Shown here piece by piece: positions 15,885 through 48,289 of a stretch of 64,000 nucleotides of DNA. Under the pieces are notes generated by a model, which saw only the letters and a list, made by a program, of their open reading frames with translations, was not told where the DNA came from and ran no database searches. The translations under genes and the position numbers were made by a program. Numbering within the stretch: the stretch's first letter is position 1; every line of letters starts with the position of its first letter. This stretch comes from Welwitschia mirabilis (lineage: Eukaryota). The stretch is taken from positions 21,488,386-21,552,385 of the forward strand of contig JBOZIK010000001.1 of assembly GCA_051453625.1 (NCBI GenBank), in the 5' to 3' direction.

Positions 15885-15896
15885 GCTCTGATACCA
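15885..15896 (-). promoter_or_regulatory. Primer-binding site (tRNA-iMet) of element B
   Basis: GCTCTGATACCA is the reverse complement of TGGTATCAGAGC, 2 nt from the LTR. Confidence 0.95.
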
Positions 15897-15898
15897 CT

Positions 15899-17303: not shown

Positions 17304-17308
17304 GAATA

Positions 17309-18145
17309 GAAGCATTGAAATTGTACTTTAGGTGGTTTCTTACTTATGCCTTCATCTACTAATACTCAAACTTACCAGTTTTTACTAAATGCTGAAAGTA
17401 GCTTTTTTGCAATAAATAAGATTAACCTATGGAAGTAAGTTGCTAAAATTACCTTTATGGAAAAGTGTAATGATATTCATGCATAATATAAATCCAAGAT
17501 TAATTTTATCCCTATGAGAAGGCAATATATCATAAAAGGCTACATGGGGTTGCAATAGCTATAGCTACTCCCTAAACTAGTATATTAGAAAAGGTAATTA
17601 AAATTAAAATGGATGCATTAGGTACCATATCTTTTCATTCCGTATTCTCATAAAAGTTCATCTTTAAATGCTCAAAGAGAACATTTCTCAACAAATGCCA
17701 TGAAATCTTAAGAAAGTGGCATGTGAAAATATCCTTGAAGAATACATATATAACTGAGAAATTTCTAAATCATCTATGCCAAGCATGAAATTAATAAAAT
17801 TAGGTATAAGAAAGAGAGAAGTACTCATACTTGAGTTTGAAAAGTCCCTGTGTTATCATCTATCTCATGAATGTTAGCATAGAACTCCTAGACAATAAGG
17901 TTTAGAATGCTCTACTCTAATTGAATTCTTATGTCCTTACTAAGATAAGATAAATAAGAAAGGAGATGATATTTTTTGTGCTTTTAAAAGTGAGTCCTTT
18001 CTATAATAATGGAGTTTATGGTCCAAGTTTTAAAACATTTTATAGCTAATTCATGATAGAAATTTGGTTCGTATTGAGGTCTATGTATTTTAGTGATAGA
18101 TTCCTTGTCTTTTGAGGCATCACAAGTTTTTTCCTCCCCCACCAT
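17309..18145 (-). pseudogene. N-terminal half of the env-like ORF of element C
   Basis: Reverse complement gives AGGGAGTTCTATGCTAACATTCAT (REFYANIH) at about 17866-17890; homologous to 3529-4390. Confidence 0.7.
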
Positions 18146-18849
18146 TTTAAAGGAAAAATATTAAATAAACTAAACTTTAATAAGCAAATGGAAAAGAATC
18201 AATGAAAAAGAGCACCTGATTTGTTAGTTGTGAAGACTTCTTCCAAATCTAAGACATTATGCTGAGAGTTCTAAGAAAAACAAATTAGGCTATAGAGGAC
18301 TCTGAGGGATATCTACCAAGTGGAGGATTAAAAATGAGGAATGGTGGTCCCTTTTATAAATAAAAAGATTAAAAACCCTCATCTTGGCATGTTTTTTATT
18401 TTTGAACATATTATGAGAAAGACATCTACCACTTAAGAAATGTTTAAAATGATAAAATTAGATGTCTATTAGTTTGGAAGTTGTCTAATGATAAGAAATT
18501 TTAATGGGTACTTATGCATTATAAATATGTCTACATATTTAGAGACAACCATTTCCAAAAACAATAAAAATTAAAAACTGATACCTAACCTCTAAAGATG
18601 TCTAGTATATAAAAGATACCTATTATTAAAAAAATCTTTAATATAGATGTCTGCCACTTAAATCATGTCTTTCTTATAAAATAGAAACTTCAAAAGTTTC
18701 TATAGTAATGTCAAGATTAGACTATCACAGTTAAAAAATGATAAAATGTATGATATACTAGTCAATGTTTTAGCTATTATCTCAACTCATAAAGTATCAA
18801 AATGTGAAGTTGACAGGTCAAAAGTGATTACTTGATGACTTACCTAATT

Positions 18850-21800
18850 CGGTAAGGCTCAATCCCCAAGTCTTTCTATAATTTAATAAACTTATCATCA
18901 CTTAGTAATTTGATAAAGACATCTACAAGTTAATCATCAGTATTAATGTATTCTAGTATGATGTCTTTATTTTGTATGTTCTCTATAAGGAAATGATACT
19001 AGTCCCTATATGTTTGATTCTTGAATACTAAATTGGATTTTTCAAGATGTTGATAACAGTTTTGTCATTGTAATAAATGGGAATGCTTTTCATAGTTAAT
19101 ATGAAGTCTTTTAAGATTTGCTTCATCTAACGTAACTGAGCATAGTAACTTCTAGCAGTAATGTATTTAACCTCAGCAGTTGAGAGGGTAGTTGAATTTT
19201 ACTTTTTGTTACTCTAAGATATCAAAACTTACTTAAGAAAAAATTAATTTTTACTAGTTATCCTTCTATCATCCTTGCAACCTACCCAGTCTGCATCATA
19301 ACATTCAACTAGATTAAGACAAAAGTCCTTTGAATATTAAAGGCCCTAATCAGTAATACTTTTTAAATAGTAAAATATTATTTTAATTGTCATTAGATGT
19401 GATTCTCTAAGATCATTCTAATAATAAGGACAAATTCCTATACTTAAACTGATATTAGGCGTACTAAAAGTAAGACGTAATAGACTACCAATCATACCTC
19501 TAGATAACTTTTAGTGAATATTATTACTATGTTCATTCTTATCTAGTTTTGTGCTCTGGCTCATTAGAATATCTTTGACTTTGCAATATTGTAAGTCATA
19601 CTTAACCAATAAATTTTTAATGTATCTAGTTTAAAAAATGAATGTACCTTATTTGGGTTACACAACTTGAAGCCCTAAGAAGTTACTCATCTCACATGAG
19701 AAACTCATCTTGCATAATCTTAGTGAACTTCTTATACAAACACTTTTTACTAGCACCAAAAATTATATCATCCACATAGATTTAAATAATAGTAAAATCT
19801 CTAACATTTATTTTAATAAATAATGTAACATTAGATGTACCTCTTTTAAATCTGTTTGCTAGATGTCATGAGAGTTTCTCATAGTAAGCTCTTTTCGCTT
19901 TCTTAAGACTATAAAGAGCCTTTTTGAGTCTAGAAACATAATCTAATTTCTGGGAGTTAGTAAAACATCCACTAAACATATATCTCTTCTTGAAGTGCTC
20001 TATTTAGAAGGGCACTTTTGACATTCATCTGATAGGATCTTAATCCTTTGATACATGTAAAGGCTAAAAGAATTCTTATAGACTTCATATATGCTACTAG
20101 TGTAAATGTTTCTTTAAAGTTGATTGTACCATTTAACTACTAATCTTGCTTTGTTTTTAATAATATTCTAAATATCCAATTTGTATCAATGATGAGTCTA
20201 TTGGATGGTCTTGGAGTAAGTTTCCAAATATTACACCTGTCAAACTGATTAAATTTCTCTTGCATTACTAGCATCTAATTCTTATAACTTTTTGCTTCAC
20301 TGAGAGTTTTTAATTCTACCTGTGAGATATATGCTACAAATCTGTAAACTTCCTTATCAAATCTTTGATTTTGAATATCATCATATGGACTACCTATGAT
20401 GTTGCTTATGGAATAACGTATCTTTATCTTTATCATGTTTGAAGAGGTTTTCTTATCTATTTCTTCTTCCTTATCTTCCTCACTATCTAATTATGCTTGA
20501 AAAACACTAGATGGTTATTCAAGCTATATGGGAGTATAGGCATCCTACACATAAATAGAATTTAAGTTAGTATCATATATTTTGATGTTTATAGTTTTTT
20601 CTATCACATAAGTTTTATTATTGAATACTTGGCAGGCTTTTTTTACCCTGGAGTAATCCAGAAAAGTGCCATTATCAACTTGAGAATTGAACTTTCTTAG
20701 CTTATTCTTCTCATTTAAAATGGAACATTTTAAACCAATAACATGAAAATAACTTAATAAGGATTTCTTACTAAATCATAGTCCATATAAGATTTTGGAG
20801 GTAAAGCGCCTTACCAAAACTCGATTGGAAACGTAGCACTTAGTTTTAGTGGCTTCCACCGAAAAATGATATGGAACTTATTAATCATGCATCATTATCC
20901 TTATCATTTCATATAGAACATTGTTCTTTCTTTTAGTACTTCATTTTGTTGTGGAATTCTTGGTGCAAAGAATTGGTGAAGAATATCTATTTACAAAATC
21001 TCTAAACATTACATTTTTAAATTCTATATCATTATCACTTCTTGTTATTTTAATCTTGTATTTCTTTTTATTTTGTAATCTAACACGCAACTTAGAGAAA
21101 ATGTCAAATGCCTTATCCTTGTATGTAAGTAAGGCTACCCATGTGAAATGAGAGTAATCATCAATAATAGTTTGATGATACATTTTCTTANNNNNNNNNN
21201 NNNNNNNNNNNNNNNNNNNNNNNNNNNNNNNNNNNNNNNNNNNNNNNNNNNNNNNNNNNNNNNNNNNNNNNNNNNNNNNNNNNNNNNNNNAATAATAGTT
21301 TGATGATACATTTTCTTACTAAGAATTTTTATAAGAGACAGACTAATAATATCAAGATGTGAAAGATCTAAGAGACATTTAGTAGTTATAGAGTTTTTCA
21401 TACAAACCTTACCCTTGTTTACTTTTTTTTCTGACATGCCTCATAAACCTCATCATCAAAGCTTTGTAACTTAGAAATTTTTCTTGCAATATCTTTTGAA
21501 GATAAGTTTTTTAACAAGCCTTTATTCACATGCTCAAACTATCNNNNNNNNNNNNNNNNNNNNNNNNNNNNNNNNNNNNNNNNNNNNNNNNNNNNNNNNN
21601 NNNNNNNNNNNNNNNNNNNNNNNNNNNNNNNNNNNNNNNNNNNNNNNNNNNNNNNNNNNNNNNNNNNNNNNNNNNNNNNNNNNNNNNNNNNNNNNNNNNN
21701 NNNNNNNNNNNNNNNNNNNNNNNNNNNNNNNNNNNNNNNNNNNNNNNNNNNNNNNNNNNNNNNNNNNNNNNNNNNNNNNNNNNNNNNNNNNNNNNNNNNN

Positions 21801-23890
21801 NNNNNNNNNNNNNNNNNNNNNNNNNNNNNNNNNNNNNNNNNNNNNNNNNNNNNNNNNNNNNNNNNNNNNNNNNNNNNNNNNNNNNNNNNNNNNNNNNNNN
21901 NNNNNNNNNNNNNNNNNNNNNNNNNNNNNNNNNNNNNNNNNNNNNNNNNNNNNNNNNNNNNNNNAGCCTTTATTCACATGCTCAAACTATTTGTGTCATA
22001 GCTTTATTTCACCTGTAGTACTTAACAAACACTTGGTTTCCTTATTAAAAATAGCTTGTAAAGTAGTGGTATAAACATTATATTTTCTAACTCTACTAAA
22101 TAACACTTATTTTAGTTATATTCTTTAATAATGTAATCATCTTTGGTAAAATTTATAAAAAAGTTTGTATCACATAATTAACTAACATTTAGAAGATTAT
22201 GTTGTAATCTTTCTGCAAAGAAAACATCTTCTACCTTAAGTAGATTACCTCCTTCAAATGTTCCAATACCTCTACTAAGAGCCTTTATATTATGACCAAA
22301 GATGATTACTCCTTTGTCTTATTCTACTAGGGTGGTAAAGTTAGATTTGTCTCTAGTTGGTCTTGATTTTGGAATTCATATCTACTTTGGTTTATCCTAC
22401 ACAAGATGTTGTACCATACTTCTTAGCCTTTAAGCACTGTTAGTGTAATATTTGATATTAACTTTAAAAGGACAATTAAACTAATAATGATCATGTTTAT
22501 AGTAGTAATAACAAGTAATATTATTAGTGTACAGTATATGCTCATACCTTAGCTTCTAGTTCCATTTATTAAATAATGACACTAAAGTACTAGTGGAGGC
22601 TTCATTGTGGCCTAAGTCACTTTTATTATTTGGACTTCTACATTATCCAAGCATGATTTTTATGGTCTTCTTCCCTTGGGTAAACTTCTCATTGATTCTT
22701 TTAATATTAAAAAGTTTATGTATGTCTTAAAGTTCCATACCTATTTCTCCTTTACTTTCTAATTCATATTCCCCTTCTTCTTCTTCATTGTTCTTTTGGT
22801 TATGTATGATGACTATGTGAGATGGATAAGCTATTTTATTATTAGATGTCTTACATTCTCATCATCATCCCAACCTATGAAGAAAGATCTCCTTGGTTCT
22901 TTATTTTGTGATTTTTCTTGTAATCTAATTATAAATAGGACATTCCAAGGTTATGTATACTTATCCTTCACAAACCCAACATTCTAATTTGGAAATTTAA
23001 GAGCTACTAAAAGTTTTAAATTCAAACTTATTTACAACTTAAAGCTTGAATCGATTCTGATAGTTCTCCTTCTTGTTGTTCTTTCATAAAAGAAGAATTT
23101 GAACTTGCCTTGTGATAAGAGCAAGTTCTTCTTCCACATCATCTTTAAAGTTATCTCAATCTAATACTTATTTTATTTTATCTTTAAAAGCTTGCCTTAG
23201 ATTTTTACTAGCTTTAAGACTGATAGGATTCTCCTTTAAAGGACCATCTTGAATAAGATCATTTCCTAAGTCATTAGAATACTTTGTAACTCCTTAATCT
23301 GCATTGTATTAAAGTCTCTTGATTCTTCCATGGATTTTGTTTTAGGCCTATATTTTGGAGTTAGTGAACTAAAAACGTTTTGAATTACCTTGGACTTTAA
23401 AATATTTTCACCAATTCCACATATGGTATTTACTATGATAGAGACTCTTGTGAAGTACTCGTGTATTCTCTCTCCATTGTGCATTTCAAGTTTTAAAACT
23501 AATTGGTCTAAATAAGAACCTTTGATTTCTTGATAACAAAGGTTCCTTCATATGTTCCCACTGGAACATTCCATATTTCTTATGCTATTTTAAACCTAGA
23601 TATTATGTTGAATTCTTCTATTATAAGGGCTAAGTAAAAAGTATTCTTTGCTTTTGATTTGTACATGAAAACTTTATTTTCTTTGTTTCTCTAATTCCTT
23701 CTAGATTTGATTTGTTTAATAAAGTTGTTTGTTGCATCTATAGTAGTTTCTATAAGTTTTAAGTATCCATCTTCATTGCTTTATCAAACTTAAAACGCAT
23801 AAGACTATAAGTACACTTGCATACTCATTTTCTAATAGACATAGTTAGATCCATCAAAAAACAAAGATCTAATAGATGGCACACCTTCCA
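18850..23890 (-). pseudogene. Decayed Copia gag-pol of element C
   Basis: gag HNGERIHEYFTRV..GENILKSKVIQ; integrase IIDDYSHFTWV..ITRSDNDIEF; RT YVDDIIFGA at about 19750-19785; RNase H DADWVGCKDDRR at about 19260-19300. Confidence 0.9.
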
Positions 23891-23943
23891 TAATTTACTT
23901 AAGAATGTTACTCATTTTCATGAGTACCTACTCTAATACCACT

Positions 23944-25324
23944 TGAGCATTGTTGAACTTAGAGGAGATTGATAAATGAGGTCTATCAAATAAATTCATG
24001 ACTAAATTTGAATAAAAATACATAATAAAGACCTTATTAAATTAATTTGATTCCCTAACTTAGGTATGTCCACACATAAAGGGTAGCTTCCTTTCACAGC
24101 TCTGGATATCCTTAACCTATAAAATAGTGGTTTTTTAGCACCACCAACCTTACATACAAATGAAATGCTCCTTACAAGACAACACTCTCTTCCCTTGATG
24201 GATTACAACAGACAAAAATAAATTTATACTCATAAGCACTTAAGGAAGCATATCCATACAAGGGTTATCTTATAGTTTAAAATCCCAAGTAAGCGATTCT
24301 TAAGATAATAACAAGTAATGGACTATAATGAATGAATCTAAAAATCTAATAGTCCTACAAAAAAGTGTTAATAAACAATGCTAAGAAAAAGAAAATAACA
24401 ATCCTAAAAGATGTTACTTTGATGAAATGCTTGAGTTCTTCCTGTTGTAGTCATCCATATGTATCTAAGATTAGAGTGATGTAATTGTGGGAGAGTCAAT
24501 GATCAAGTAATGTATTTACTAGATGGTCTTCTTCATCAAGGTTACAAAAATATTCATGTGTGGTACTAATCACTTGTGTGTGTAATCCTTTTTCTTTACA
24601 CTTTATGTCTTTTGATGTCTTCCTTGTCTTTACAATAGAGAGATAATCATTTGAAATGATTAAACACTTTGTAACGGGTAAAAATGGCTAAGTTTTAGTT
24701 GTCCAATGACTATTTTATTTTTTGGCAATTTTTCAAGGTAGACATCTTTGACATAATATACATCTTTGTTAGGTAGACACCTTCATCCTGAAAGACGTCT
24801 TTGATCAAATTGCCTAGATTTTAATAAGATCTAAACTACTAAATCTTTGACCCTTAAAGATCATGAATTTAATATGTAAAACTTTCCTAATTCCATAGAA
24901 TGTATATAATTTATCATTTTACAATTTGTATTTATTACCTCTTTCAGTTAGGACACATGTGTTTGATTCCATAGATGTCTTTAAATAGATGAAGTAGTAT
25001 AGGTGTCTTTAATTTGCTAGATATTTCACCTATCTTAGCTTCTTGCTTTAGTATAAACATCTTTGACATGATAGACATCTTTTCCTGTGACAAACTCCAA
25101 TTCAATCTAGACATCTTTGATTTAGTAGATGTCTTTACCATAGATGTCTTCATCTATGTGGATGTCTTAATCAATTTTGTCTATCCTTGATAAATTCTAA
25201 GTTGAATATTCTATGTACTTTGAACTTCTGACTTAATCCTATTTGCAATTCAGTGTTCTTTAATTTTTCTTATCTCACATTACATTTGATAAGTAAAATT
25301 AAAAAAAATGGGATTTTATCAATA
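23944..25324 (-). repeat. 5' LTR of element C
   Basis: Begins TGAGCATTGTTGAACTTAGAGG next to the PBS and ends ...GATTTTATCAATA like the B LTRs; rich in AGACATCT/AGATGTCT motifs. Confidence 0.8.
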
Positions 25325-25479
25325 CGTAAAGTGTGAGGCCTTAATTATAATTAAAATTATTTGATTGATTGATTATGATAGTTGTACTTTAAGGAAAAGG
25401 TACAATTACTAAAATCTTGGATTTGACATCCCTCTCACCCTCTAATACATTTTAAAGTAATAATTAAACATGTTTACCC

Positions 25480-25665
25480 TTAATAATATACATGTAATAT
25501 TATTCATATGAGATAAATAATATAATATAATATAATAATATGCATATAATATATAATATAATATATATGTAATATTATGCATATGTATTATGTAATTTAA
25601 TAGTATGTTTTATATGTAGTATAATAATATAATACTAATAGATTATAAAACATAGTAATAATAAT
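25480..25665. repeat. AT-rich low-complexity / degenerate (ATAAT)n tract
   Basis: Runs of ataat/atata, almost devoid of G and C. Confidence 0.7.
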
Positions 25666-26974
25666 TGGACTATACCTATGTGACTTATTATATATGTTCA
25701 CGGTATTAATGTTAATCATAAGATAATTGAATAGGTTTATATTGTATATGAGAATCCTCACTATATTTTTTCACTCTTAATCATATGCTTATATTTTCCT
25801 ATAGATTTATATTACTTGCTCTTCTAATCATTGTATATATGTCTTGTGTTACGAAAGCTTTGCTACATAATCTTCAATATAAACCTTCTTTCATAAGTGA
25901 AATCACAATCAAGACCTAGACAATGGTGGATCGGTCATAAATTAGAAGGTGGACAATAGCTAGTAGTGGGTTGTCATTTGCCTAAGTAGACTGATAGTCC
26001 ACTTTGAGTGTGATAATGTTTCATATAAATCTACTTCTAAAAAAGAACTCAAGTCATATATGTGGTACTAAAAAGTGATTGCTCAAAAAAATCTTCTCTA
26101 AGATTTAGAATAAAAGGATGACCTTCCTTCAATTCCTTTTCTCAAAAGACTTATAACAATGTATTTTGAACTTTTTTGTTTGTTGTTTTTACTTTCTCCA
26201 CTAGAATTTTTTTATAATTTGTTTATACATTAGACATTACTAGTACTCGAATGACATATTATCCTCCTAACATCTTATTGTAATTTATTAAGATGAGAGT
26301 CTAATATAAAGTGTTATTTCCCAAAACTCCTATTATAATTTATTAAATTAGAACTTGCATCATCTTATATAGGCTATGAAGAATACTTTTCTTTACTAAA
26401 GCTTAAAAAAACCAAGTCATAAACTTCATAGAAGTAACCTAGATGAATAACTTGGAAAATCATTGAAAACTTAATTCTTCAAGACTTTTTTTTTAAATTA
26501 AAGTTAAAATCTATAACTTCTTCAAGACCTAAGATTATTAAAAGAGGTCCAATATAAAGGTTTGTGACTGCATTTCTAAAAGCACATAGAAAAAAAGACC
26601 ATGTTTTATGAAGTTGTAAAATCTCATTACTTGAGACATCTCTTACATAACTAATTTCAATGCCATCATAAACTAAAAAGGAAAAACATGATGGAAAATA
26701 AGATGTGCAATTTGAAAAGTATGACTTAATATTATTAAAGATCTATTAATAAACTTTCATGGACATTAGCACTCCTTACAGAAAGAGTAGGAAAGAAATC
26801 CAAATTATACAGTGATAATAATTTTGCTAAAGCATTATTATGAAATACCACTTTGAATTACCAAAAATCACATTATTTGTTAACAGAGATGATGAAAATA
26901 GAATATTTCTATTAATAATGCTATTAAAAAAAGAAAAAATAAATAATACCTCTAAACTTGAATACGTCTTAGTG

Positions 26975-27760
26975 CTATTGATCTTTGTCTTTGACTTCCA
27001 TTATTTGCAAGGACACTCTCCTATCAGAAAATTCATGATGTTTATTAATAAGCTCCATTATTTTCTCAAGATAATCATTACTAAGAAATTTGATATCATC
27101 TCCGTTCTTATCATACAAAATCCCTTTCAATAATTTAGATCTATTTCCAAGAAATGATTTGCTATTGTTTTGGCTATTTTTGAAGATGCCATCAAACTCC
27201 AACGAATCCTTAAGTTCCAAATCCAAATAGTTTCATTTGTGCTACATCTAACACAAGGCATAATTTCATCAACTCTTTGATAAAACATCCATTCAATACT
27301 AACTAAACTATGAAGCTCTTCCTTGCATCTCTTCACCTTGTAGTTCCTTTTCAAGCTATCAACTTTGTTCATACATTGCTTCATGATTTTTGTAGTTTTC
27401 GCTCATTACCATTGAATATTCACATAGCTAAGGATATCTTCCTAGTCTTTAGTTTTCAAATAACCTTTGTCATACAAACATTTTTTGCCTAGCTATTAAG
27501 CAGCTATAACAATGTCTTAGAATGATACCAATACGTAAATACAACATGAGTAAATTTGTAGGCATTGCCATGATGGCATGATCCCTTATAAAAATTTAAA
27601 TAAGAATTTCATGAATAGTTGAAGATGCAAGAATCTCTTCATTGAGCTTTCTTACTAGGATGCATGAAAGGACACTTGGTCTCATAATGGCTACATCCTC
27701 ACGCACAACACTATACCTTAAACTCATACATCTAGAACTCATCATTGTAGAGGTTAAGCT
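26975..27760 (-). pseudogene. Decayed chimeric ORF: RR-TZF CCCH zinc-finger fragment (about 27755-27520) fused to a trihelix Myb/SANT-like domain (about 27520-27255)
   Basis: Reverse-complement translation NDEF*MYEFKV*CCA*GCSHYETKCPFMHPSKKAQ*RDSCIFNYS*NSYLNFYKGSCHHGNAYKFTHVVFTYWYH, then after one frameshift KCLYDKGYLKTKD*EDILSYVNIQ..KIMKQCMNKVDSLKRNYKV..EWMFYQRVDEIM. Confidence 0.85.
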
Positions 27761-28628
27761 TAGTAAATTGGATATGGAAGATCATTCTTAAGAGTAGATC
27801 TTTTGTTTTTTTTCCTTAATTACTTTTTTCTTCAAAATGCCACTTGAAATGCCCTAGATCTTATGTCAATGCATACCCTTTCTCACCTTTCTAGCTCACT
27901 AACTTTTTTACTGATTCACATTGCCTTTGATCATTTTTAGTGTTTAATTTACCACCATTTATACTTTCCATAACGCTTTAAGATTAGCATGCATGTTAAT
28001 GCTAACATCAACGCCATTCCTTTAATGCTTGGATTTCTTTGTTATTAAACCCAATGCAGAGAATAATGTAGTGGAAAGGGTGTTACATAGGATTCATGCA
28101 AAATGTTTAGGTTATAGGGTTATAGAAAAACTTAATAGAAATTAAAATGATAACACACTTGAAATAAAGCTCAAAGAAAAATAAACCCTAAATATTATTC
28201 TAATTTTTAAATATTTTTATCAAAAAATAAAGAATGTAATAGGAACATAAAATTGAAACAAAATTTGCAGAAAGAAGAAAAACAAAAGAAATAAGTTCTG
28301 TATTTGTTTTTTTAAACCTTCTTTTAGTTGCGACCTATATAAAACTTGTTAGATCTTTAACAAAAAAGTATGAAAAATATTGTTTAGGTTATAGTGAAAA
28401 AGTAAATAAAATTCTGAAATAAACCAATTTGATTATCATTAGAAATCTACTAGTACTAACCATTAGAAAGAAAAGAAAATGAAAGAAATACCCAAAAGAA
28501 AAATGACATGTTTGGGTTTCACTGGAAGGAACTAGTACCAACTAATGAAATAACTTAAAACGAAACTAAACTAAAAATCTAGAAGAAACTAAAATTATGC
28601 TTCTTTCAAGAAGCTATTATGTCATTAT

Positions 28629-28644
28629 CCCAGCAACAGCACCA
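28629..28644 (-). promoter_or_regulatory. Degenerate Athila-type (tRNA-Asp) primer-binding site
   Basis: Reverse complement TGGTGCTGTTGCTGGG differs from TGGCGCCGTTGCCGGG only by three C>T changes at CpG. Confidence 0.75.
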
Positions 28645-28647
28645 ACA

Positions 28648-29661
28648 TCTATCTATTAGTTAGTACAATTAAACTGAAATAAACTAAGTGAGATTCAATA
28701 TCATTCTTCTATAAGGATAATTAAGACAAACTTAATTAGAAGTTATACAAGATTGTCAAACTTATAATAAAATCCTAATACAAAAGAAAAATCAAGAGTT
28801 AAGAATTTTAATGAACTCCAATCAAAGAGGTAGAAAAATGAATAAGCTCTAAAGGTCTAGTTTAACTTATCTAACAAAATACCTTCACTCTAATGATATC
28901 CTGCAATTTCTTGAAACATATCTCAAACCATCAAGTCATAATAACTCAGGTCATGGTGACATAATTTCATTTACTACATGAGTGTTAGTAAATTTAATAG
29001 TTGCTTAGTACTTCATAGCCCTTTCATAAGTATGGAAAGTAAGGACTACAATACTCAAATTCCATTAAATAAAAGTAACTACAACCAATCAGATTAAGAA
29101 ATTTACTTAGTTATTAATAACACTTGCTAATGTAGTTTCACTTAAGTATTGTAAGTATGAAGCTATTTGCAAATTAAAATAAAAAATAAATAACTATCCT
29201 TTTCATTAATTTAGAAAACTATATTATATCAAAGGATGAAGACTAGATTGGTAGAGACTCCTTATACTAGCCTTGGAATAAGTCCATTCTAAGGATTTCT
29301 ACTATGTTTACCAACCAAAGAACCCTTACAAATAAGATCTCAAGGCTCTTTTATAGGTTAGTATGAGGTGGAAATGATTAAAGGCCTCTGACTTGTAGTG
29401 GTAGATGGACGATTACAAAGTTTTTCATGTAGCTTTAGATAGAGTCTTTATCTTCTTGCATTAGGTGAGATTATTATGATGAGTCCAACATGTAGCCCTT
29501 TGATTATAATGCTTCTTTCAATTGATGCAATTTCTATGTGTCTCCAACATCACCTCATGTAACACTGTCACATATTGCTACTATGTGTCTTCTACGTCAT
29601 CGCTATGAGTTATTAAAGATGCTAGTTATTTCTAATGTAATAACTAATTACGCCCATAACA
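28648..29661 (-). repeat. Probable Gypsy-type 5' LTR
   Basis: Adjacent to the PBS; rc TATA (CTATAAAAGAGCC) near 29350; ends CCCATAACA. No second copy was found, so boundaries are tentative. Confidence 0.5.
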
Positions 29662-30039
29662 GGATTTTAATCATTTTTCTGTGATAGTTCTAGAATGTAA
29701 CTTTTGAAGTGTTCTGCTCCAAAGGATTGCTGGTGCTAGTGAACTAGATAATGGCACTAGTTTCTTTGATTAGATGATCCTTAACTTTCAGCATGTTCTT
29801 TAGAATATAGTAAATAGGTTAAAAATGTCATGGAAATGTGATAAGTTCATAAATCATGTTTAAAAAGAGTAGAATACATAATTTTATGATAAATTGGTTA
29901 TTTTAAATGTCATTTTAAGCTAAAATAGTTAGATAACTTGACCATGTTAAAACATTCTACTCCTAATACATTAAGCATAGTAGTGAAAATGGACATTAGC
30001 TTCTTCCATCTATTCCATGGAATTTTCCTTAATGTGAAG

Positions 30040-32550
30040 CATTTATTATGGGAAAAGTAACTAGATAATGGGTTTTATTAATTAAGTGACATGTTAATCG
30101 AATGCTTTTTCTTGTTCACAGTGACTTATATAAAACTATGCCAATTTTCACACTCCAAGTCTTTCATTACTTTATATCCTTTATTGAGATCTATTAGCGT
30201 AGGTGTACATATAAAATCCAAATCACAAACTTTATATGCTTTTAAGATATTTAAAACTAAAGTGAAAAAACAAGTCAACTATAAAATCAAAAGTTTCCAC
30301 TAAGATAATAGTAGCGAGTACACATCTAGGAATTCAACATTTAAAGACTTGCCTTGGGATACCTCAACAAAATGGAATTGTCGAATGATTTAATAACACC
30401 ATCATACATATGGTGTATTCTATGATGTATTTTAGTGGTTATAAGACTTATCTTTGGGGTGAAGCAGTAAACACAACACTACATTTCAATAATCATATTG
30501 GTTGACATACTGAAAAGGGACTATCTCTAACTAAAAATGGTATTGGTACAAGCCTAATTTATACCTTTTTTAAATTTTTATTAAAAATGCTATGTCCAAA
30601 TCCCAAGAGAATTTCATGACAAATTTGGAGCACATACTCCAATTAACATCTTTGTGTGATATCTAACCGACTAGAACGGCTATCCAGTGTATCTCCTATA
30701 GCATTATAAGATCATTATTTCTCATTATGTCATCTTCTTAGATACTTTGAATAATGATTTCCGACTTTTAAGTTTCATCCTTTCTCTAACCTAGTAACCA
30801 TGTTGGATGTTGAATGTTCTATAGTTGAGAGGGAATATGTGGTAATTAATAATACTTTAATTCCTTCTATTGGTATGTTCACTTTGTAATCTATAAAAAT
30901 TAAGCAATTTTATGCTCTTAGCATTCTTAATCATCATTATAGTAGCAATTAAATGGGTTCTCCAATTGAAGAAGCTAATGCTACCTATAAGTAACATTGA
31001 AGTATTTGGCTACAGTCTATTTTCCAACATGTTTGCGATGATGAGAATGGTAAAAGTAGAACTAAATATGGCTCACACAGATCTCATGATGATGATAATG
31101 AGCTATAGTTGACCTTTGATACTAAATCAACCTCATTTAAAAATGCCATCCAACATGATCATTAGATAAAAATCATGCAAGAATAATGCAATAGTATTAT
31201 TGAAAATGGTATATGGGAGTTAGTAGATCTTCCCCTAAGGTGCATAGCGTTACCTAACAAATGGGTTTTCCACAATGATTATAATGCAAATAATACCCTT
31301 AAGCAACATAAATCTTAGCTTCTTGTTATAAGCCTATGACAATATTAAGGACTTAATTACAATGAAGTCTTCACACTAATAACAAAATGGGCTACCATCA
31401 AAATAGTGATTGCCTTGGTAGCCCAAAGAGGATGGAAGCTTCATCAATTGAACATACAGATTTTCCTTCTCCATGGAGATCTAAAAGAAGAAATTTACAT
31501 GATACAACCAAAGGCCTTTGAAGTAGAAGGTAAAGAATATAAAGTGTGTAAATTGATTAAGTATTCATATGGCCAAGATGTAAATTCCATAGTATTCATG
31601 AAATATAATGGGCAAAAATATACATAAATAGTGGTGCATGTACATGATATACTAATAATCAGAAGTGATGAAGAAGATGTGAAAAAGATAAAAATTATTT
31701 TAAGTAAGGAATTTAAGATTTCTAATATTGGATTAACCAGATTCTACATAAGTGTGAAAATTATTCAGAAAGAAAATGGAATATTTTTAATACAAAAAAA
31801 GTACATTAGATATCTAATCTAGAGTTTGGATTAAAAAAATGCAAAAAAAGCTATAACACCTTTGGGAAAAAAATGCCAAGGCATCAACCGACAAAGACTT
31901 AAAACCTATAAATGAAACTAAAAACAAAATAATAATAGGAATCCTAATTTACATAATCAACACTAGATTAGATCTATCATATGTTATTGATGTACTATCA
32001 TGATATCTTCATGCACCCAAGGTTACTCATCTGAACATTGCAAATAGAGTACTGAGATACCTGAAAAAGATAAAAGATTTAGGTTTAACCTATAAAAGAA
32101 ACTTTCAATTAGTTCTAAAGGCACTCTCTAATTCTAATTTCGCTAAATAAACTGATACTTTATTATCAACATCAAGGTATATCATGTTCTTAGAGACTTC
32201 ATTCCTGTCTTAGCAATTAAAGCGTAAGAAAACTATAACGTAATCTTCTACTAAGGTGAAATATTTAGCTACTTCTAAGGAATGTAGAGAAATAGAATGG
32301 TTGAGAAAATTATTAGCGTTAGTGAAATTCAAATAGACTAAGATGATAGAGTTGTTCATTGATAATCAGTTACCAATTTATCTAGCAAAAGATCTAAGAC
32401 ATCATAATAAGATAAAAACACTTGTGGGATGGGGTTCATATAAGTTATTTGACCATAGAGTAAACTGCTACTATTCTTATAAAACCACTTGGTCGAGAAA
32501 AGTTCTAGCATTTTTAATCCAAAATGGAATTGATAATGAGTTGATTTAAG
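30040..32550 (+). pseudogene. pol: Decayed Copia pol (integrase, RT, RNase H) of a non-SIRE family
   Basis: LVHSDL; KSKSQTLYAFKIFKTKVKKQ..KIKSF; PQQNGIVE; IALVAQRGWKLHQLNIQ..LHGDLKEEIYMIQP; VHVHDILI; ELFIDNQLPIYLAKD. Confidence 0.9.
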
Positions 32551-33063: not shown

Positions 33064-33080
33064 GCGAGTTGATATAGACT

Positions 33081-33700
33081 TTGGTTTGAAGAACTTTATA
33101 TAATCTTAAAGCTTGTTTGAAGATAAGTTCATGTTGATTGTTATGGTAGATACATTCTACTTCATAGATTTCTATTAAACTGGGTTACTTAGCTCATCCT
33201 AAAAGGATACTTTGTCATAGACCAACACTCAAGGGATTGAACCCATGACATCTTAAAAAAATTTTATTTCAGGATCCAACATAATCTCCTCCCCCTTTAT
33301 CACCTAATTTTGTTGGGAGTCTAAATTTAACGCAACCTTCGACTTTAGTGGGTTCGTATAAACATTGGTTTGAAAACCTTTACAATGTTTTAGACCTTAT
33401 CTGAGGGCAAGCTTACGTGAATTGTTATGGAAGAAATATCATGTTGCATAGATTTCTATGAAACCGAATTACCTAGCTATTACTAAGAGGGCACCTTCTA
33501 ACTTCCTAACACTTAAGAGCAGGCAAGTTCATGTTCATGTGAAGTGTTATGGGAAAAATATCATAACACATTGATTTTTATTAAACCGATTTATGTAGTC
33601 CAAGAGTGCACCTTCTCACTTAGTGACACTCAAAGGGGTTGAACCCTAAACCTTTAAATCTATAAGCTCAAAAATGCTCTAACGACTAATTGAGCTATGT
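33081..33700 (-). mobile_element. Three diverged copies of a tRNA-derived SINE-like repeat
   Basis: Units at about 33081-33256, 33365-33518 and 33523-33700 share TGTTATGG..CAT.GATTT.TAT.AAAC.G..ACACT. The rc of 33635-33697 is tRNA-like (TAGCTCAATTAG..AGAGCA..GGTTCAACCCC). Confidence 0.65.
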
Positions 33701-36091
33701 GTGGAGGGACGTGTGAATTGTTGCAAAAGGAAATGTATTTTGTGATGGAGCCAAAATTAAGAGTCTTTTTAAGAAAGTATTTAATAAGAAAATTAACGTA
33801 TAGAAGAGGGGCATGATAGAGTCAACTTGTAAAATCCAAAAGTCCCATGTTCGTTGAATAATGTATTTCATTTCAAATTAGAGATAATATCACGACGCAA
33901 CCTTAACGACGCAACTCATGGTTATTGTTAGTAAATAACGGAAACATAATGGCTGTTTGTTCCGCATTGGAATAATTTTTCCGTTATTAGATTGGGGGAA
34001 TACTTTAGCAAGCTACAGGTGACAAGAAGCAGAAGAGCAGAAGAAACCAGCATTTGGAAGCAGTTCAGTAGCAGCTGCAGAAGCAGCTTCGAGTAATGGA
34101 CAAAAGTCTTTTGTGATGGACCGTCCAATTCGGATTGTTGCAGCGACAGTAAGAAAAGCTTTTTCTTTTTCCTTTTTTATAGATCGAACGAGAAATTCGT
34201 TTAAAGCTTTTAAATTCTTTGCGTTTTTCTTTGATTCGATGACAGACAGATATATGATCTGCAACTCATGTTATTAAATGATGTTTCTTCTGGTAAAAGT
34301 GCTTTCCGTTTCGCAGACGCCTTCACGCCTGAGCTTCTGCTGCGAGAGTTAACTCATTTTTAATCGTAAGCGCGCAGTTTCCTTTCATTTTATTTGTTAT
34401 TTTGTTTGCTTCCGAATGGATGACTCGTTGTTATTCTTTTAAGGATTTAGGGATAAGTATTTCTTTAAGAATTGTGAAATCGAGAACTTGGACCTTCCTT
34501 TTCAGTCTTTGCGTGGATACCGCATTATTAGGATACAAGGATTTAGCTTTTCACTGTTTTCGGTCCTTCAGTTGTCGATCGGCAACAAAATTTGAAAATT
34601 TATTGCTTCATTTGTGCTTCTTGTAATTCTTTCTTTAGCGTTCCGGACGGTGATCTTTTCGTCTTTCTGTCGATAAATTTCGTGAAATAGGACTAAAGAG
34701 AGTAAAAACCGTCTCTTTGCTAAAATTCTCACTTTTGCATAGAAGGAGCTGAATAGAAGGGCAAATTGATGATTAATTTGATCTGGATTATCGTTTTTGT
34801 AAAGAAAATGTATTTTTGTAGTTTTAGCGATAGTGCGTAGTCAGGCGCAGGTTCGATATTCAATAAAGGGAGCACGAAAAGGTGTTCTCAAGGGCAATGC
34901 ATTTTCATGGATTGATGTAGGCCACTAAAATGTAAACTGTCGGCGGGCAAATAAGAACTTTTAAACGATCCTCGTGCGAGACGGCCAGGCCACAACCTTA
35001 TGCCTTTTGGAGGAAGTTTCGGATTCAATGATAGCTCGTTACTCCGTTAATTTCTCGCGTACCTCTTTTATGCGGAGCCACAAAAGAGGATTGTGTTCTT
35101 TTTTGAGAAAACCATTAAGAATTTGGAAGGAGGGAATGCATTTTTCGCATTCCAAAGAAACCGACTGCAGCTTCCGATTTTCCAACTGCTCGGTCTTCTT
35201 TGGTTTTCTTAGTAAGCTTGACCGTTCTTTCACTTAACGCTATGTTTTTTCGCAGCTTAAGATTAGCGGAAGCTGCAAAATAAGAAAATAGATGGCTTGT
35301 AAATTACTCGTTGGAAGAATTTTCATAAAGCGTAACGTCTTACTCTGCTTCTCCTCGCAGTTTACATTAATTGCCCATCAATGAATGTAGCTGGCATGGG
35401 TCCTTGCTCGTTGCCTTGGGCAAACAAGAAAATGCTTTAGCCCCTATGCCATGTGCATGTTTCATGGAACGCAAAGCAAGAGAGTGCTTAGTATTGAGTT
35501 TTCCGTCTTTAGCACCCGATTCGGTTTTTCCCGTGAGATGACGTAAATGTGGTAGTCGTTGTGAGTTTCTGTTAATTAAGGTGAGAAATCCGTCGAGACG
35601 GAAAAGAGATGTCCTTCCCGAAGCTTTTGTTCTAAGATTTTTCCCTAATTAAATCCCTTTACTTCTAAATAGACGTTGTGGTTCCATGTTAGGGCAAGCG
35701 TCCTTGTCAGATCTCCGCTTTACGTCATCTCATTGGGCATAATTACCTGGGGTCTACCAAGGGAAAAATATAGCTGGGTCAAACTCAAAAAGGTTCGAAG
35801 CTATATCGCCTGGTGTTTCTGTCAAGTGACGTTGGTTTCTAGCTCGGCTAGGAACTTCCTCTCGACAGATTGTCGATGCAGGTTTTTGGCCTTCTCTCAT
35901 CCACTCTTTTAGCAAGATCAAATAGAACAGTAGGCTTCAGAAGCCATTCTCTCTTCAGAAGATGCGCTGGTGGCCCTAGCTAGTCTCTCTCACATTGTAA
36001 AATCTGCGAGGCTTGTTTGCCTGTGAAAATGAAGTGGATTGGTTGTTGCTTGGGTGTTCTAGCAGAGTAATGCCGGAAACCTTTTCCGGCA

Positions 36092-37278
36092 ATGACGATC
36101 GTCTTGAGCATTATGATAACATTGAGTTTGCTCAAGAAGCAATCTGTGCTTTTCTTGCTGGTGGTTTGGTGCCTCGTTTCCGGCAAGGCTTCGCAGGATG
36201 AAGAAAAGGTAGTGTTACTGAATTTCAAAAGCAGAATTATAATGGACCCGTTAAAAGTATTAGGGTCTTGGAACCCTTCCGATCCGTCTTCGTGCCACTG
36301 GGGAGGTGTTAGCTGTGACAGGGATGGCAACGTGGAGAAAGTTATTTTGCAGGGTAAAAATCTTAGCGGCATTCTTTCTTCTGACCTGAGCAAGCTGTCG
36401 CACCTTCGCACGCTTTCTCTTTCTGCAAATAATTTTAGAGGCCAAATCCCTCCACAGCTAAGCGAGATAGCTACTCTTTGGAAGCTTAATCTTAGCAACA
36501 ACGCATTTGCCGGTTCGATTCCGCCTGATTTGGGGAATTTGTCGAATCTGCGCATGCTAGATGTATCTGGTAATTTCCTCTCCGGGGCCTTACCAAACTC
36601 ACTTTTCAAGTTATGTGGCAAATTGCGCTACATTGCTTTGTCTAATAATAACTTTTCTGGCACGATTCCGCAAGAGATTGCTCAATGTGGGAGGCTTGAA
36701 GGCGTAGATTTTTCTTTAAACAATCTTGAGGGAATTTTTCCCGTACAAGTATGCAATCTTCCTTCGATATCGTATGTGTCGCTCAATCACAACAGGTTTA
36801 GTGGGAATATGCCTCCGGAGTTGTCAAGTTGCGAAAACCTACAATATTTGGATTTAGGGAGCAATCTTTTTTCTGGGAGTCTTTCTCAAGGTCTTTTAGC
36901 GTTGCCAATGCTGAAACATCTCAATATTTCCCAAAATAGGCTTTCAGGCGAGATCCCCTTTGTGGCAAAATGTGATAACGTCGAAGAAATTTACCTTGAT
37001 TCTAATAACTTAACAGGTAGTATTCCTTCAAGTATAGAATCATGTAAAAAGCTTAAGGTTCTTGATCTGGGCAGTAATGCGATCACTGGGAACATTCCTC
37101 CCGAGATAGGAAATTTGACCCAGTTATCTGCACTCAAGCTTGGCAGAAATGATATAGGTGGTACTATACCTTATGAAATAGGCAAAGTTGAGCTTCTTCA
37201 AGTTCTTGACCTTCATCAATTGCATTTGTCGGGTCTTATTCCTGAAGTGCTTTCTAATTGCAGATTCTTGATAGAACT
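36092..37278 (+). CDS. LRR receptor-like kinase, exon 1 (signal peptide, LRRNT, LRRs); LRR-VII / At1g12460-like
   Basis: Hydrophobic N-terminus, DPLKVLGSW..CHWGGVSC cap and plant-type LxxLxLSxNxxSGxIP repeats; GT donor at 37279 (GAACT|GTAAGT). Confidence 0.95.
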
Positions 37279-37510
37279 GTAAGTGAACTTTTCGTGTTGA
37301 TTCTTTATTGTTGTGTTGCTGAGACATCGTCTACTTCAATTTGTACTGTGTATTTTAATGGATCTCTCTCAGTGGCTCTTTTTATTGAATCAGTGTAATA
37401 AAAAATTTCCTTCGCAAATCCTGTTATAGATTACATGGAAATTCAGCTTTCAATACCATTTCGTTGTGGGGTCGATACATTATAGTTTTTGTTTCTGGGG
37501 TTGTTTGCAG

Positions 37511-38978
37511 TGATCTGTCCGGCAACAATCTGGAAGGAAGAATACCGGCGAAGATCTACAATCTCACATACTTAAGCCGACTGAACCTTAGAGGCAACAA
37601 CATCAATGGCAGTATTCCAACAACCATGGGAAGATTAAAATACATGAGTTATCTTGACTTGTCAAAAAATTCTCTCTCCGGAGCGATTCCTTACACATTA
37701 GGGAACATGACACGACTAAGTTATTTTAATGTTTCACTCAACAAGCTTGAAGGAGCTATACCTAACAATTCTGTAATGAACAAGTTCGGTTTTGAATCTT
37801 TTGCTGGCAATTCCGCATTGTGTGGATCTCAGGTAAACACAAGCTGCATTTCCCCCTCACCGGCTCCATCCTTCCAACAGATTAGAAGAACGAGGGTCTT
37901 GACTGTATCTGCTATAATTGCCATAATTGCAGCTGCAGTGATAGCTCTGGGAGTGGTCATAATTACTCTGATGAATGTGAGGGCTCTGCGGAGGAGGAGG
38001 ACTGAAATGCTGGTCTTTGAAAGCACGCCTCCCTCTCCAGAAACCACTTCTATTATCGGGAAACTTGTTCTTTTCAGCAAAAGCCTGCCGTCCAAGTATG
38101 AGGATTGGCTTGCAGGGAATAAAGCTTTGCAAGACAAAGAGTGCCTCGTCGGAGAAGGTGTAATTGGGACTGTGTACAAAGCTACATTCGAGGGAGGAAT
38201 AACTATTGCTGTGAAAAAACTGAATACGTTAGGGAGAATAAAAGGCCAAGAGGAATTCGAACAAGAAATTGGGCGGCTAGGAAATCTTAGGCATCCTAAT
38301 CTTGTGGCATTTCAGGGGTATTATTGGTCATCTACCACGCAGTTAATTTTGTCTGAATTTATCTCAAATGGGACCCTCTATCATCATTTACATGAAGGTC
38401 ATCCTGATCATACCCTCCTATGTTGGGCAAGGCGATTCAAAATCGCTCTTGGAACCGCCAGAGCCCTTGCTTACCTCCATCATGATTGCAAGCCACGCCT
38501 CCTGCATTTTGATATAAAATCCACAAATATTCTAATTGACGAGGATTTTGAACCAAGGCTCTCAGATTATGGGCTTGGAAAGTTGTTGCCTATGTTGAAT
38601 TCTTATATATCGAGTAGAAAGTTTCATAATTCTGTAGGATATATTGCGCCGGAGATTGCCAATCAGAGTTTGAGGCTTTCAGAAAAGTGCGACGTCTACA
38701 GTTTCGGAGTGGTGCTGCTGGAGCTTATTACAGGTAGGAGACCTGTTGAAAGTTTTAATTCAGAAGTCATTATTCTTTGCCAGCATGTAAGGTCTGCCGT
38801 GGAGCGAGGGGCAGTTGCAGCATGCATTGATCCGAAATTACATAGAATCCCTGAAAATGAGGTCATGCAGGTCTTGAAGCTTGGACTTATGTGCACTTCT
38901 GAAACACCTTCGAGGCGGCCCAGTATGGCCGAGGTCGTTCAGGTTCTGGAGTCTATCAATTTCAATTCGGAAATGTAG
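37511..38978 (+). CDS. LRR receptor-like kinase, exon 2 (last LRRs, TM, kinase); spliced CDS 2655 nt, 884 aa
   Basis: Acceptor TTTGCAG at 37510 restores the frame (FLIEL-DLSGNNL). TM VSAIIAIIAAAVIALGVVIITLM; IIGKLVLFSKSLPSKYEDW juxtamembrane motif of At1g12460-like RLKs; kinase motifs AVKKL, HFDIKSTN, DYG, GYIAPE, DVYSFG. Confidence 0.95.
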
Positions 38979-48170: not shown

Positions 48171-48289
48171 AAATAATTGAGAGAGTATCAAATTTGTTAC
48201 GACTGTGAAACCAAATGAAGTTTGAAACGGGAAAAATAGAGCATGATAAAAATGTAACTTTACTAATAAAACTTGAAGCTTGAACCATT

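What the first reader, a model, noticed from the sequence alone, without database searches (positions are those of the whole stretch)
25429..29661. Candidate non-autonomous LTR element carrying host regulatory-gene cargo instead of gag-pol
Seen, all on the minus strand and in order: a probable LTR (about 29661-28648), an Athila-type PBS (28644-28629), a T-rich leader, the TZF-trihelix chimera with no intron evident across the two domains, about 1.5 kb of unassigned sequence, and a purine tract followed by TG (rc AGAGGGTGAGAGGGA-TGTCA, 25443-25424). No gag or pol motif was recognised. Inference: an LTR retroelement family that captured and fused host mRNAs by template switching and may have maintained the fusion as an accessory protein or siRNA source. 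Caveat: the 100 bp left of the purine tract does not visibly match the end of the putative 5' LTR, so the 3' boundary is unproven.
Basis: partly seen in the sequence, partly recalled or inferred. Interest (0 to 1): 0.75.

Follow-up and report, generated by a model that had tools for sequence, protein, structure and literature searches.

The report
Decayed retroelement stub beside dead gene chimera
This is an old, heavily mutated stub of an Athila-type plant retrotransposon followed by a dead fusion of two transcription-factor gene fragments, an ordinary kind of transposon debris whose status as a mobile cargo-carrying family could not be shown.

Summary
Partly confirmed, ordinary. A tRNA-Asp (Athila-type) primer-binding-site relic is real. 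28644-28629(-) differs from the published PBS at 3 of 16 bases, exactly its three CpG cytosines (C>T). It is unique in the window and matched in 0 of 100 shuffles. About 0.9 kb downstream on the same strand lies a real but dead chimera. It has a TZF/CCCH fragment (Pfam PF25512, E 1.7e-10, 6 stops in 80 codons) abutting an exon-1 fragment of a gymnosperm-type trihelix gene (tblastn E 3e-21, 48% identity, 6 stops in 99 codons).

Not confirmed:
- The "LTR" has no partner anywhere in the window.
- Its proposed 3' end reads GA, not CA.
- The sequence after the purine tract does not match it.
- No TSD, TIR or Helitron end was found.
- "No intron" says nothing, because the trihelix piece lies wholly inside parental exon 1.

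Capture by the retroelement is the likeliest origin (about 0.45) but unproven. Such capture is already known to be widespread. Interest is low.

The parts
28648..29661 (-). Putative 5' LTR portion of an Athila-type element. It is unverified and its boundaries are not established.
   Evidence: It lies directly upstream of the PBS. It has no repeat partner in the window. The proposed 3' end reads GA, not CA. CpG o/e is 0.18.
28627..28644 (-). Decayed primer binding site complementary to the tRNA-Asp 3' end (Athila/FIDEL type).
   Evidence: There are 3 mismatches in 16 to the published PBS, all CpG C>T. It is unique in the window, with 0 of 100 shuffles matching.
27741..28626 (-). Non-coding leader of 886 nt between the PBS and the cargo.
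   Evidence: No Pfam domain in six frames. It is 39.4% T. FIDEL's 5' UTR is 1,009 bp.
27519..27740 (-). Pseudogenised tandem CCCH zinc-finger (TZF) gene fragment.
   Evidence: PF25512 matches 27740-27645 with E 1.7e-10 and 40.9 bits. The extension to about 27519 was judged by eye against a recalled TZF consensus. There are 6 stops in 80 codons.
27235..27489 (-). Pseudogenised exon-1 fragment of a gymnosperm-type trihelix (Myb_DNA-bind_4) gene. By eye it probably extends to about 27530 upstream and about 27190 downstream in another frame.
   Evidence: tblastn of P0005 residues 32-116 gives 48% identity, E 3.4e-21. There are 6 stops in 99 codons. No exon-2 homology was found.
25444..27234 (-). 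Unassigned sequence downstream of the cargo.
   Evidence: No Pfam domain in six frames. No repeat partner. An AT-rich tandem repeat lies at 25483-25640.
25429..25443 (-). G-rich purine tract followed by TG. It is a candidate PPT and is unproven.
   Evidence: It is one of 3 such tracts in the window on both strands. It lacks the ttgggg core reported for Athila-like PPTs. The following 183 bp is unlike the putative LTR.
23757..25245 (-). Left flank: third LTR copy of a Copia tandem array, truncated at about 25245.
   Evidence: Self-blast and alignment with the copies at 8331-9925 and 15899-17301.
29950..32450 (+). Right flank: 5'-truncated Copia relic (integrase, RT, RNase H region) with no LTR pair.
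   Evidence: rve/rve_3 at about 30199-30433, SH3_retrovirus at 30583-30750 and RVT_2 from 31208. No gag hit was found upstream.

Best explanation
The locus is an old, methylation-decayed relic of the 5' part of a non-chromovirus Ty3/gypsy (Athila-type) LTR retroelement on the minus strand: an LTR remnant, a tRNA-Asp PBS and a leader of about 0.9 kb. In the position where gag should begin it carries a dead chimera. That chimera is a TZF (CCCH) gene fragment joined head-to-tail to an exon-1 fragment of a trihelix gene.

The most likely history, which is inferred, is as follows. Host gene sequence was taken into the internal region of a non-autonomous element, by template switching in the virus-like particle or by another capture route. 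The element's 3' part was later lost or separated by deletions and by the Copia insertions that now flank it. Everything then decayed by CpG deamination.

Shown: the PBS, the two gene fragments, their orientation and their inactivation. Inferred: that the fragments were inside the element, and the mode of capture. This copy has no protein function.
For: - PBS relic: unique in the window, 0 of 100 shuffles, and its mismatches are exactly the three CpG sites.
- CpG o/e is 0.22 in the focal region against 0.67 in the neighbouring LRR-RLK gene, with GpC near 1. This fits deamination decay.
- A tRNA-Asp primer is a non-chromovirus Ty3/gypsy trait, and Ty1/copia lineages that use complete tRNAs use tRNA-Met. 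The PBS is therefore not from the flanking Copias.
- The cargo is on the same strand, 886 nt from the PBS. FIDEL's 5' UTR is 1,009 bp.
- Two unrelated gene fragments abut directly. None of the 7 database relatives of the trihelix piece carries a CCCH domain, so this is not a native architecture among the nearest relatives.
- The junction falls at a W-x-H-S codon run. The trihelix family has E-W-H-P there, and the TZF consensus W-L-H-P is recalled. This suggests joining at a microhomology.
- A G-rich purine tract + TG lies 3.2 kb downstream of the PBS, and only 2 such tracts occur on the minus strand of the window.
- No TIRs, Helitron-like 3' end or DDE transposase were found.
- Literature passages: non-autonomous ATHILA without coding capacity are common. 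Capture of gene fragments by LTR retrotransposons is known, for example Bs1, rice and sorghum. It is reported at an average of about 400,000 fragments per gymnosperm genome.
Against: - No second LTR exists anywhere in 64 kb, although Copia LTR pairs of 73-80% identity in the same window are readily detected.
- The 183 bp after the purine tract scores no better than shuffles against the putative LTR.
- The proposed LTR 3' end is GA, not CA, and no TSD can be defined.
- The purine tract lacks the ttgggg core reported for Athila-like PPTs.
- No Ty3/gypsy domain occurs on this strand near the PBS.
- No other copy of the cassette was found by the only external routes available. The exhaustive protein search gave no hit above 44% identity, and the metagenome scan gave one 9-residue chance-like match. 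Both routes are poorly suited to finding plant repeats.
- Both flanks are truncated Copias. The block could therefore be a patchwork made by deletions, with PBS and cargo adjacent by accident.
Confidence: 0.45

Rival explanations
1. Accidental neighbours. A truncated Athila-type 5' stub (LTR remnant + PBS + some leader) was joined by deletion or illegitimate recombination to unrelated DNA. That DNA already held a chimeric pseudogene formed, for example, by repair-mediated filler DNA or duplication. The cargo was never inside the retroelement.
For: - Both flanks of the 25.2-29.7 kb block are truncated elements. The Copia LTR copy ends early at about 25245, and the right-hand Copia lacks gag and its 5' LTR.
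- There is no 3' LTR, TSD or matching post-PPT sequence.
- Nothing marks where the leader ends and foreign DNA begins.
Against: - Same orientation, and a PBS-to-cargo distance close to a known Athila-type 5' UTR length.
- A direct head-to-tail fusion of two gene fragments is typical of TE-borne capture (passages).
- A rare G-rich purine tract + TG lies downstream on the same strand.
Confidence: 0.3
2. The chimera belongs to another class of capturing transposon (Pack-MULE, Pack-CACTA, Helitron, or a PIF/Harbinger Myb-like ORF) that inserted into or next to the Athila relic.
For: - Pack-type DNA transposons and Helitrons are the classic carriers of multi-gene fragment chimeras in plants (passages).
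- Myb/SANT-like proteins are also encoded by Harbinger elements (recalled).
- The sequence is so decayed that short termini could be unrecognisable.
Against: - No inverted repeats bracket the cargo beyond short AT-rich chance-like pairs of 73-84% over 18-37 nt.
- Only one GC-containing hairpin + CTRR was found in 25.0-29.9 kb, and it lies upstream of the cargo next to the PBS.
- No DDE transposase or other DNA-transposon domain was found in six frames of 24.0-34.5 kb.
- The trihelix piece is closest to small single-gene clusters of 1-8 members. They share a conserved C-terminal region and an inferred intron, so they look like host genes.
Confidence: 0.12
3. One reading: an active or recently active non-autonomous LTR family that keeps the TZF-trihelix fusion as an accessory protein or as a source of siRNA against the parent genes.
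For: - Same structural cues as the best explanation.
- Epigenetic conflict between captured fragments and donor genes is described in maize and a conifer (listing; passages).
Against: - This copy has 12 stops in 179 codons plus a frameshift.
- CpG o/e is 0.22-0.27.
- There is no LTR pair.
- No close paralogue protein was found among 1.84 billion representatives.
- Expression and small RNAs were not examined.
Confidence: 0.05
4. No retroelement at all: the PBS-like string is a chance match, and the region is anonymous decayed DNA with pseudogene fragments.
For: There is no LTR pair, no canonical CA end and no gypsy domain.
Against: - 13 of 16 matches to a GC-rich motif in 28%-GC DNA.
- A unique hit, with 0 of 100 shuffles matching.
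- The mismatches fall exactly at the three CpGs.
Confidence: 0.03

Closest known systems
Athila/Calypso/FIDEL-type (OTA, non-chromovirus Ty3/gypsy) LTR retrotransposons, including non-autonomous ATHILA derivatives
   Same: A tRNA-Asp-type PBS. A long non-coding leader after the PBS. Derivatives without detectable coding domains are known in Arabidopsis.
   Different: No paired LTR, no gag/pol remnant, no ttgggg PPT core and a non-CA LTR end were found here. The described non-autonomous ATHILA types arise by internal deletion, not by replacement with host genes.
Bs1 of maize and other LTR retrotransposons with transduced host gene fragments (rice, sorghum, gymnosperm surveys)
   Same: Fragments of more than one host gene are fused in sense orientation inside, or apparently inside, an LTR element that lacks its own pol (passages; passages).
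   Different: Bs1 is a complete element with both LTRs and a transcribed, translated chimeric ORF. Here only a 5' stub is visible and the chimera is dead.
Pack-type DNA transposons and Helitrons carrying gene-fragment chimeras
   Same: Head-to-tail chimera of unrelated gene fragments.
   Different: No TIRs, Helitron termini or transposase were found.
Processed (retroposed) chimeric pseudogenes
   Same: Intron-free, same-sense gene fragments with many disabling mutations.
   Different: No spliced exon junction is covered. There is no poly(A) tail at the end of homology; only an A9 run lies about 480 nt further on. RNA origin is therefore untested.

Membership tests
LTR retrotransposon (structural definition) | Two long terminal direct repeats | tested here: not met
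   Self-blast of the window and of 24.2-34.0 kb against the window finds no partner for 28648-29661. Copia LTR pairs of 73-80% identity are found by the same searches.
LTR retrotransposon (structural definition) | PBS complementary to a tRNA 3' end just downstream of the 5' LTR | tested here: met
   28644-28629(-) against the published Asp-tRNA PBS: 13 of 16 bases match, the mismatches are the 3 CpG C>T sites, the hit is unique, and 0 of 100 shuffles match. The distance to the LTR end is unknown because that end is not defined.
LTR retrotransposon (structural definition) | PPT immediately upstream of a 3' LTR | tested here: inconclusive
   A G-rich purine tract + TG lies at 25443-25429(-), one of 3 in the window. 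The sequence after it is unlike the putative LTR.
LTR retrotransposon (structural definition) | TG...CA LTR termini and a 5-bp target site duplication | tested here: not met
   The proposed LTR starts with TG at 29661 but ends ...TAGATAGA before the TGT spacer. No second boundary exists against which to look for a TSD.
Athila-type (OTA) Ty3/gypsy lineage | tRNA-Asp (or Asn) PBS with the TGGCGCCGTTGCC core | tested here: met
   The primer type is lineage-characteristic.
Athila-type (OTA) Ty3/gypsy lineage | Athila gag/protease/RT/RNase H/integrase domains | tested here: not met
   No gypsy domain in six frames of 24.0-34.5 kb. The only gypsy-type domains in the window (RT_RNaseH, rve) lie at 48277-49380 on the opposite strand. 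Their absence is compatible with a non-autonomous or truncated element.
Athila-type (OTA) Ty3/gypsy lineage | Conserved ttgggg PPT core (as reported for FIDEL and Athila-like elements) | tested here: not met
   No TTGGGG on the minus strand between 25.0 and 28.6 kb. The relaxed form TTRRRRRR is non-specific, with 199 minus-strand hits in the window.
TE-captured gene fragments (Bs1-like transduction) | Host-gene-derived sequence located between the element's own termini | tested here: inconclusive
   The host-derived fragments are shown. Only one terminus-side landmark, the PBS, is present.
TE-captured gene fragments (Bs1-like transduction) | The same cargo present in several copies of the family | not testable with these tools
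Pack-MULE / CACTA / Harbinger | Terminal inverted repeats bracketing the cargo; transposase in autonomous partners | tested here: not met
   Only short AT-rich inverted pairs were found. No DDE domain was found.
Helitron | 3' hairpin followed by CTRR downstream of the cargo | tested here: not met
   One hairpin + CTRR was found in 25.0-29.9 kb, at 28614(-), upstream of the cargo. This is a weak test in decayed DNA.
Processed retrocopy | Loss of parental introns | tested here: inconclusive
   The parental trihelix intron is inferred after about residue 172 of P0004. The cargo matches residues 32-116 only. An exon-2 profile finds nothing in the window. The intron structure of the TZF parent was not examined.

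The most novel reading that the evidence does not exclude
A real, formerly mobile family of Athila-lineage non-autonomous elements in a gymnosperm-like genome, in which gag-pol was replaced by a fusion of a TZF RNA-binding fragment and a trihelix DNA-binding fragment joined at a shared W-(x)-H-P microhomology. The window would hold one decayed, 3'-truncated copy. Younger copies elsewhere might still encode the fusion or feed siRNAs against both parent regulators.
Probability: 0.12. Interest if true: 0.4.

Novelty: new member of a known kind. Interest (0 to 1): 0.2.

Why it matters
If the cargo really sat inside the element, this is one more example of gene-fragment capture by an LTR retrotransposon. 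That process is already documented from Bs1 to genome-wide surveys, which report an average of about 400,000 captured fragments per gymnosperm genome.

Its modest value is as a worked case. A primer-binding site can still be recognised after heavy decay because its mismatches fall exactly on CpG sites. "No intron" is not evidence for retro-capture unless the fragment spans a parental intron site. The copy in the window is dead, so no direct functional consequence is expected.

Tried and rejected
- Whole genome: none is held for this window.
- Sequencing runs: 24 rows were listed. Twelve hold the stretch or part of it, 6 hold at least half of the words, from 3 studies and two organism labels. 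No RNA holder was listed.
Copy number, expression and variants therefore stay unexamined.
- Word-indexed protein searches with the TZF read-through and the trihelix read-through found nothing. The queries are probably too decayed for exact 5-mers.
- The third search, with the LRR-RLK ORF, gave only hits of about 60% identity or lower (liverworts, several angiosperms), so it did not identify the organism.
- The metagenome scan with the trihelix ORF had 81 pattern matches. One passed tblastn, a 9-residue match, which I treat as chance.
- Rfam: 0 families in the window. tRNA genes: 0.
- Transition-tolerant local alignment of four segments against the putative LTR gave no score above the shuffled range. 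The scoring was in the linear regime, so it is a coarse test; blastn agrees.
- I tested whether the 1.5 kb 'unassigned' part or 25.2-26.9 kb could be the missing 5' part of the right-hand Copia. There was no gag hit and no LTR-like match to 32.5-34.5 kb, so I rejected this.
- I considered a C-terminal (exon-2) trihelix remnant in ORF 26978-27232, based on a by-eye resemblance. It was rejected after the profile search found nothing and Pfam found nothing.
- My first Pfam try on the TZF (entry 27510-27760) used the wrong frame. This was corrected.
Full report
Setting. The window is AT-rich plant DNA (about 29.6% GC) with seven N gaps.

It is mostly decayed LTR-retrotransposon debris around one intact-looking LRR receptor kinase gene at 36071-38975(+). 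I submitted 33 of the 68 ORFs of at least 70 aa, plus one mis-framed read-through, to Pfam. In one search I submitted 147 of the 231 ORFs of at least 48 aa. The rest lay in 24.0-34.5 kb, which was scanned in all six frames, or in the kinase gene, or had been scanned already. Seven of the 147 had hits.

To the left of the finding lies a Copia array on the minus strand. Its three LTR copies are at 8331-9925, 15899-17301 and 23757 to about 25245, and they are 73-80% identical. To the right lies a 5'-truncated Copia on the plus strand, with integrase at about 30.0-30.75 kb and RT from 31208. The focal block of 25.2-29.7 kb is therefore bounded by two truncated elements.

What is confirmed. The primer-binding site is real.
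- The published Asp-tRNA PBS of the Athila-type element FIDEL is tggcgccgttgccggggat (Table 1 passage). ATHILAfinder gives the same TGGCGCCGTTGCC core for ATHILA (passages).
- Window 28644-28629(-) reads TGGTGCTGTTGCTGGG. It differs at three positions, all C>T, and they are exactly the three CpG cytosines of the motif. The two non-CpG cytosines are intact.
- It is the only match in the window with up to 3 mismatches, and 0 of 100 dinucleotide-preserving shuffles gave any match.
- The decay pattern fits the region. CpG observed/expected is 0.22 in the focal block and 0.14 in the left Copias, against 0.67 in the kinase gene, with GpC near 1.
- Primer type is lineage-characteristic. Ty1/copia lineages that use complete tRNAs use tRNA-Met, and tRNA-Asp is used by non-chromovirus Ty3/gypsy (passages). 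The PBS therefore marks a separate, Athila-type relic rather than part of the neighbouring Copias.

The cargo is real but dead.
- In the correct frame, 27740-27645(-) matches Pfam PF25512 (AtC3H23-like CCCH finger) at 40.9 bits against a cut-off of 27, E 1.7e-10.
- By eye, and against a recalled TZF consensus, the similarity runs on through the first C-x8-C-x5-C-x3-H finger to about 27519. Several Cys codons there read as Tyr.
- The 80-codon read-through has 6 stops.
- Immediately after comes a trihelix fragment. Pfam alone is weak (Myb_DNA-bind_4, 18 bits, below the cut-off of 27).
- An exhaustive search of 1.84 billion representatives gave 7 hits at E<=1e-3, and 5 of them carry Myb_DNA-bind_4.
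- The relevant hits are small clusters from Araucaria, Cryptomeria, Ginkgo and an unnamed set.
- With these, tblastn aligns P0005 residues 32-116 to 27489-27235(-) at 48% identity, E 3.4e-21.
- The 99-codon read-through has 6 stops, and homology then changes frame.
- None of the 7 hits has a CCCH domain. The fusion is thus not a native architecture among the nearest relatives.

The junction. The TZF frame ends ...F-T-Y-W-Y-H-S at about 27519. The trihelix family begins its conserved part with E-W-H-P-(D/A)-T-V. The TZF consensus at that point, W-L-H-P, is recalled. Both parents thus plausibly share a W-(x)-H-P codon run at the join, which would suit joining at a microhomology. This is an inference from decayed sequence and was not tested.

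What is not confirmed.
- The 1 kb called an LTR has no partner in the window by seed-based repeat finding, by megablast-like self-comparison, or by a sensitive blastn of 24.2-34.0 kb against the whole window. The same searches recover all the Copia LTR pairs.
- Its proposed 3' end is ...TAGATAGA followed by TGT and the PBS. That is GA rather than the usual CA.
- The purine tract at 25443-25429(-) exists. As a G-rich tract followed by TG it is uncommon. There are 24 tracts with at least 14 of 15 purines + TG in the window, and 3 of them have at least 8 G, 2 on the minus strand.
- The tract lacks the ttgggg core reported for Athila-like PPTs.
- The 183 bp between the tract and the truncated Copia LTR shows no likeness to the putative LTR.
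- No TSD can be sought without a second boundary.
- The leader is only mildly T-rich, 39.4% against 34.9%.

The intron argument. Within the P0004 cluster, genomic ORF calls from metagenome contigs split the protein. P0010 matches residues 1 to about 172 and then diverges. P0009 and P0011 start with unrelated residues and then match from about 173 to the end. The Ginkgo and Cryptomeria models diverge at the same place. I infer a conserved intron there. The cargo matches only residues 32-116, or about 135 by eye. A profile of the exon-2 part finds nothing in any frame of the window. The cargo therefore lies inside exon 1, and 'no intron' cannot distinguish RNA-mediated from DNA-mediated capture. 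The TZF parent's structure was not examined.

Rival carriers.
- No inverted repeats bracket the cargo. Only short AT-rich pairs were found.
- The only GC-containing hairpin + CTRR in 25.0-29.9 kb lies next to the PBS, upstream of the cargo.
- No DDE transposase or other DNA-transposon domain appears in six frames of 24.0-34.5 kb.
- The only Ty3/gypsy protein remnants in the window (RT_RNaseH at 48277-48438, rve at 49135-49380) are on the opposite strand beyond the kinase gene.

What could not be done. No genome is held and earlier notes were closed. The word-indexed protein searches failed on these decayed queries. A metagenome scan gave one 9-residue match that I regard as chance. The key test of whether the cassette recurs with this LTR/PBS remains open. 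The supplements holding the FIDEL consensus (.doc) could not be read, and the PBS-by-lineage tables of Neumann et al. were not opened.

Reading.
- Securely shown: a decayed 5' stub of an Athila-type retroelement, and 886 nt downstream on the same strand a dead TZF-trihelix chimera.
- Most likely (about 0.45): the chimera was internal cargo of a non-autonomous element whose 3' part has been lost.
- Next (about 0.3): the two are neighbours by accident of deletion.
- Less likely: another capturing transposon class (about 0.12), a functional or active family (about 0.05), or a chance PBS (about 0.03).

Comparison and novelty. It works like Bs1 and other LTR elements with transduced host fragments (passages). 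It also resembles non-coding ATHILA derivatives. It fails the structural tests for a complete LTR element in this window. Capture of gene fragments by Ty3/gypsy and Ty1/copia elements is reported as massive in gymnosperm genomes: an average of about 400,000 fragments per genome, with 13.68% of host TEs holding two or more (abstract and passages). Interest is low.

Noticed in passing
window 8331-25245: Copia array with three LTR copies (8331-9925, 15899-17301, 23757 to about 25245) and two internal regions on the minus strand, with a period of about 7.57 kb. The arrangement is LTR-internal-LTR-internal-LTR, as expected from unequal recombination between two elements. The LTRs are 73-80% identical, and the third copy is truncated.
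   Followed up: partly
window 158-7423: Another Copia on the plus strand (gag hit at 1207-1491) with LTRs at 158-786 and 6825-7423, about 74% identical. Its LTRs resemble those of the neighbouring array in inverted orientation.
   Followed up: partly
window 29950-32450 (+): A 5'-truncated Copia relic (integrase, SH3, RVT_2, RNase H region) with no detectable LTR pair or gag. Short tandem-like repeats lie at 33073-33633 just downstream.
   Followed up: partly
window 36071-38975 (+): An apparently intact LRR receptor-like kinase gene in two ORFs (403 and 529 aa) separated by about 109 bp. It has 42% GC and CpG o/e 0.67, against about 28% and 0.14-0.30 in the surrounding TE DNA. The best database hits are only about 60% identical (liverwort and At1g12460-like angiosperm proteins).
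   Followed up: partly
window 48277-49380 (+): Ty3/gypsy remnant (RT_RNaseH and integrase core) on the plus strand. It is unrelated in position and strand to the focal PBS. No Asp-type PBS was found near it.
   Followed up: no
window 59798-61997: Local duplication of about 1.2-1.3 kb (59798-60358 against 61078-61641, 82% identity; 60613-60819 against 61791-61997). It spans an N gap at 60978-61077. A Copia gag fragment lies at 58907-59149.
   Followed up: no
window 26486-26494 (-): An A9 run on the minus strand about 480 nt downstream of the last trihelix homology. It is too far away and too short to call a poly(A) relic.
   Followed up: no
window 27519-27740 (-): Several zinc-finger Cys positions of the TZF fragment read as Tyr. 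This fits G>A (C>T on the opposite strand) decay, the same bias seen at the PBS. It was judged by eye against a recalled consensus.
   Followed up: no
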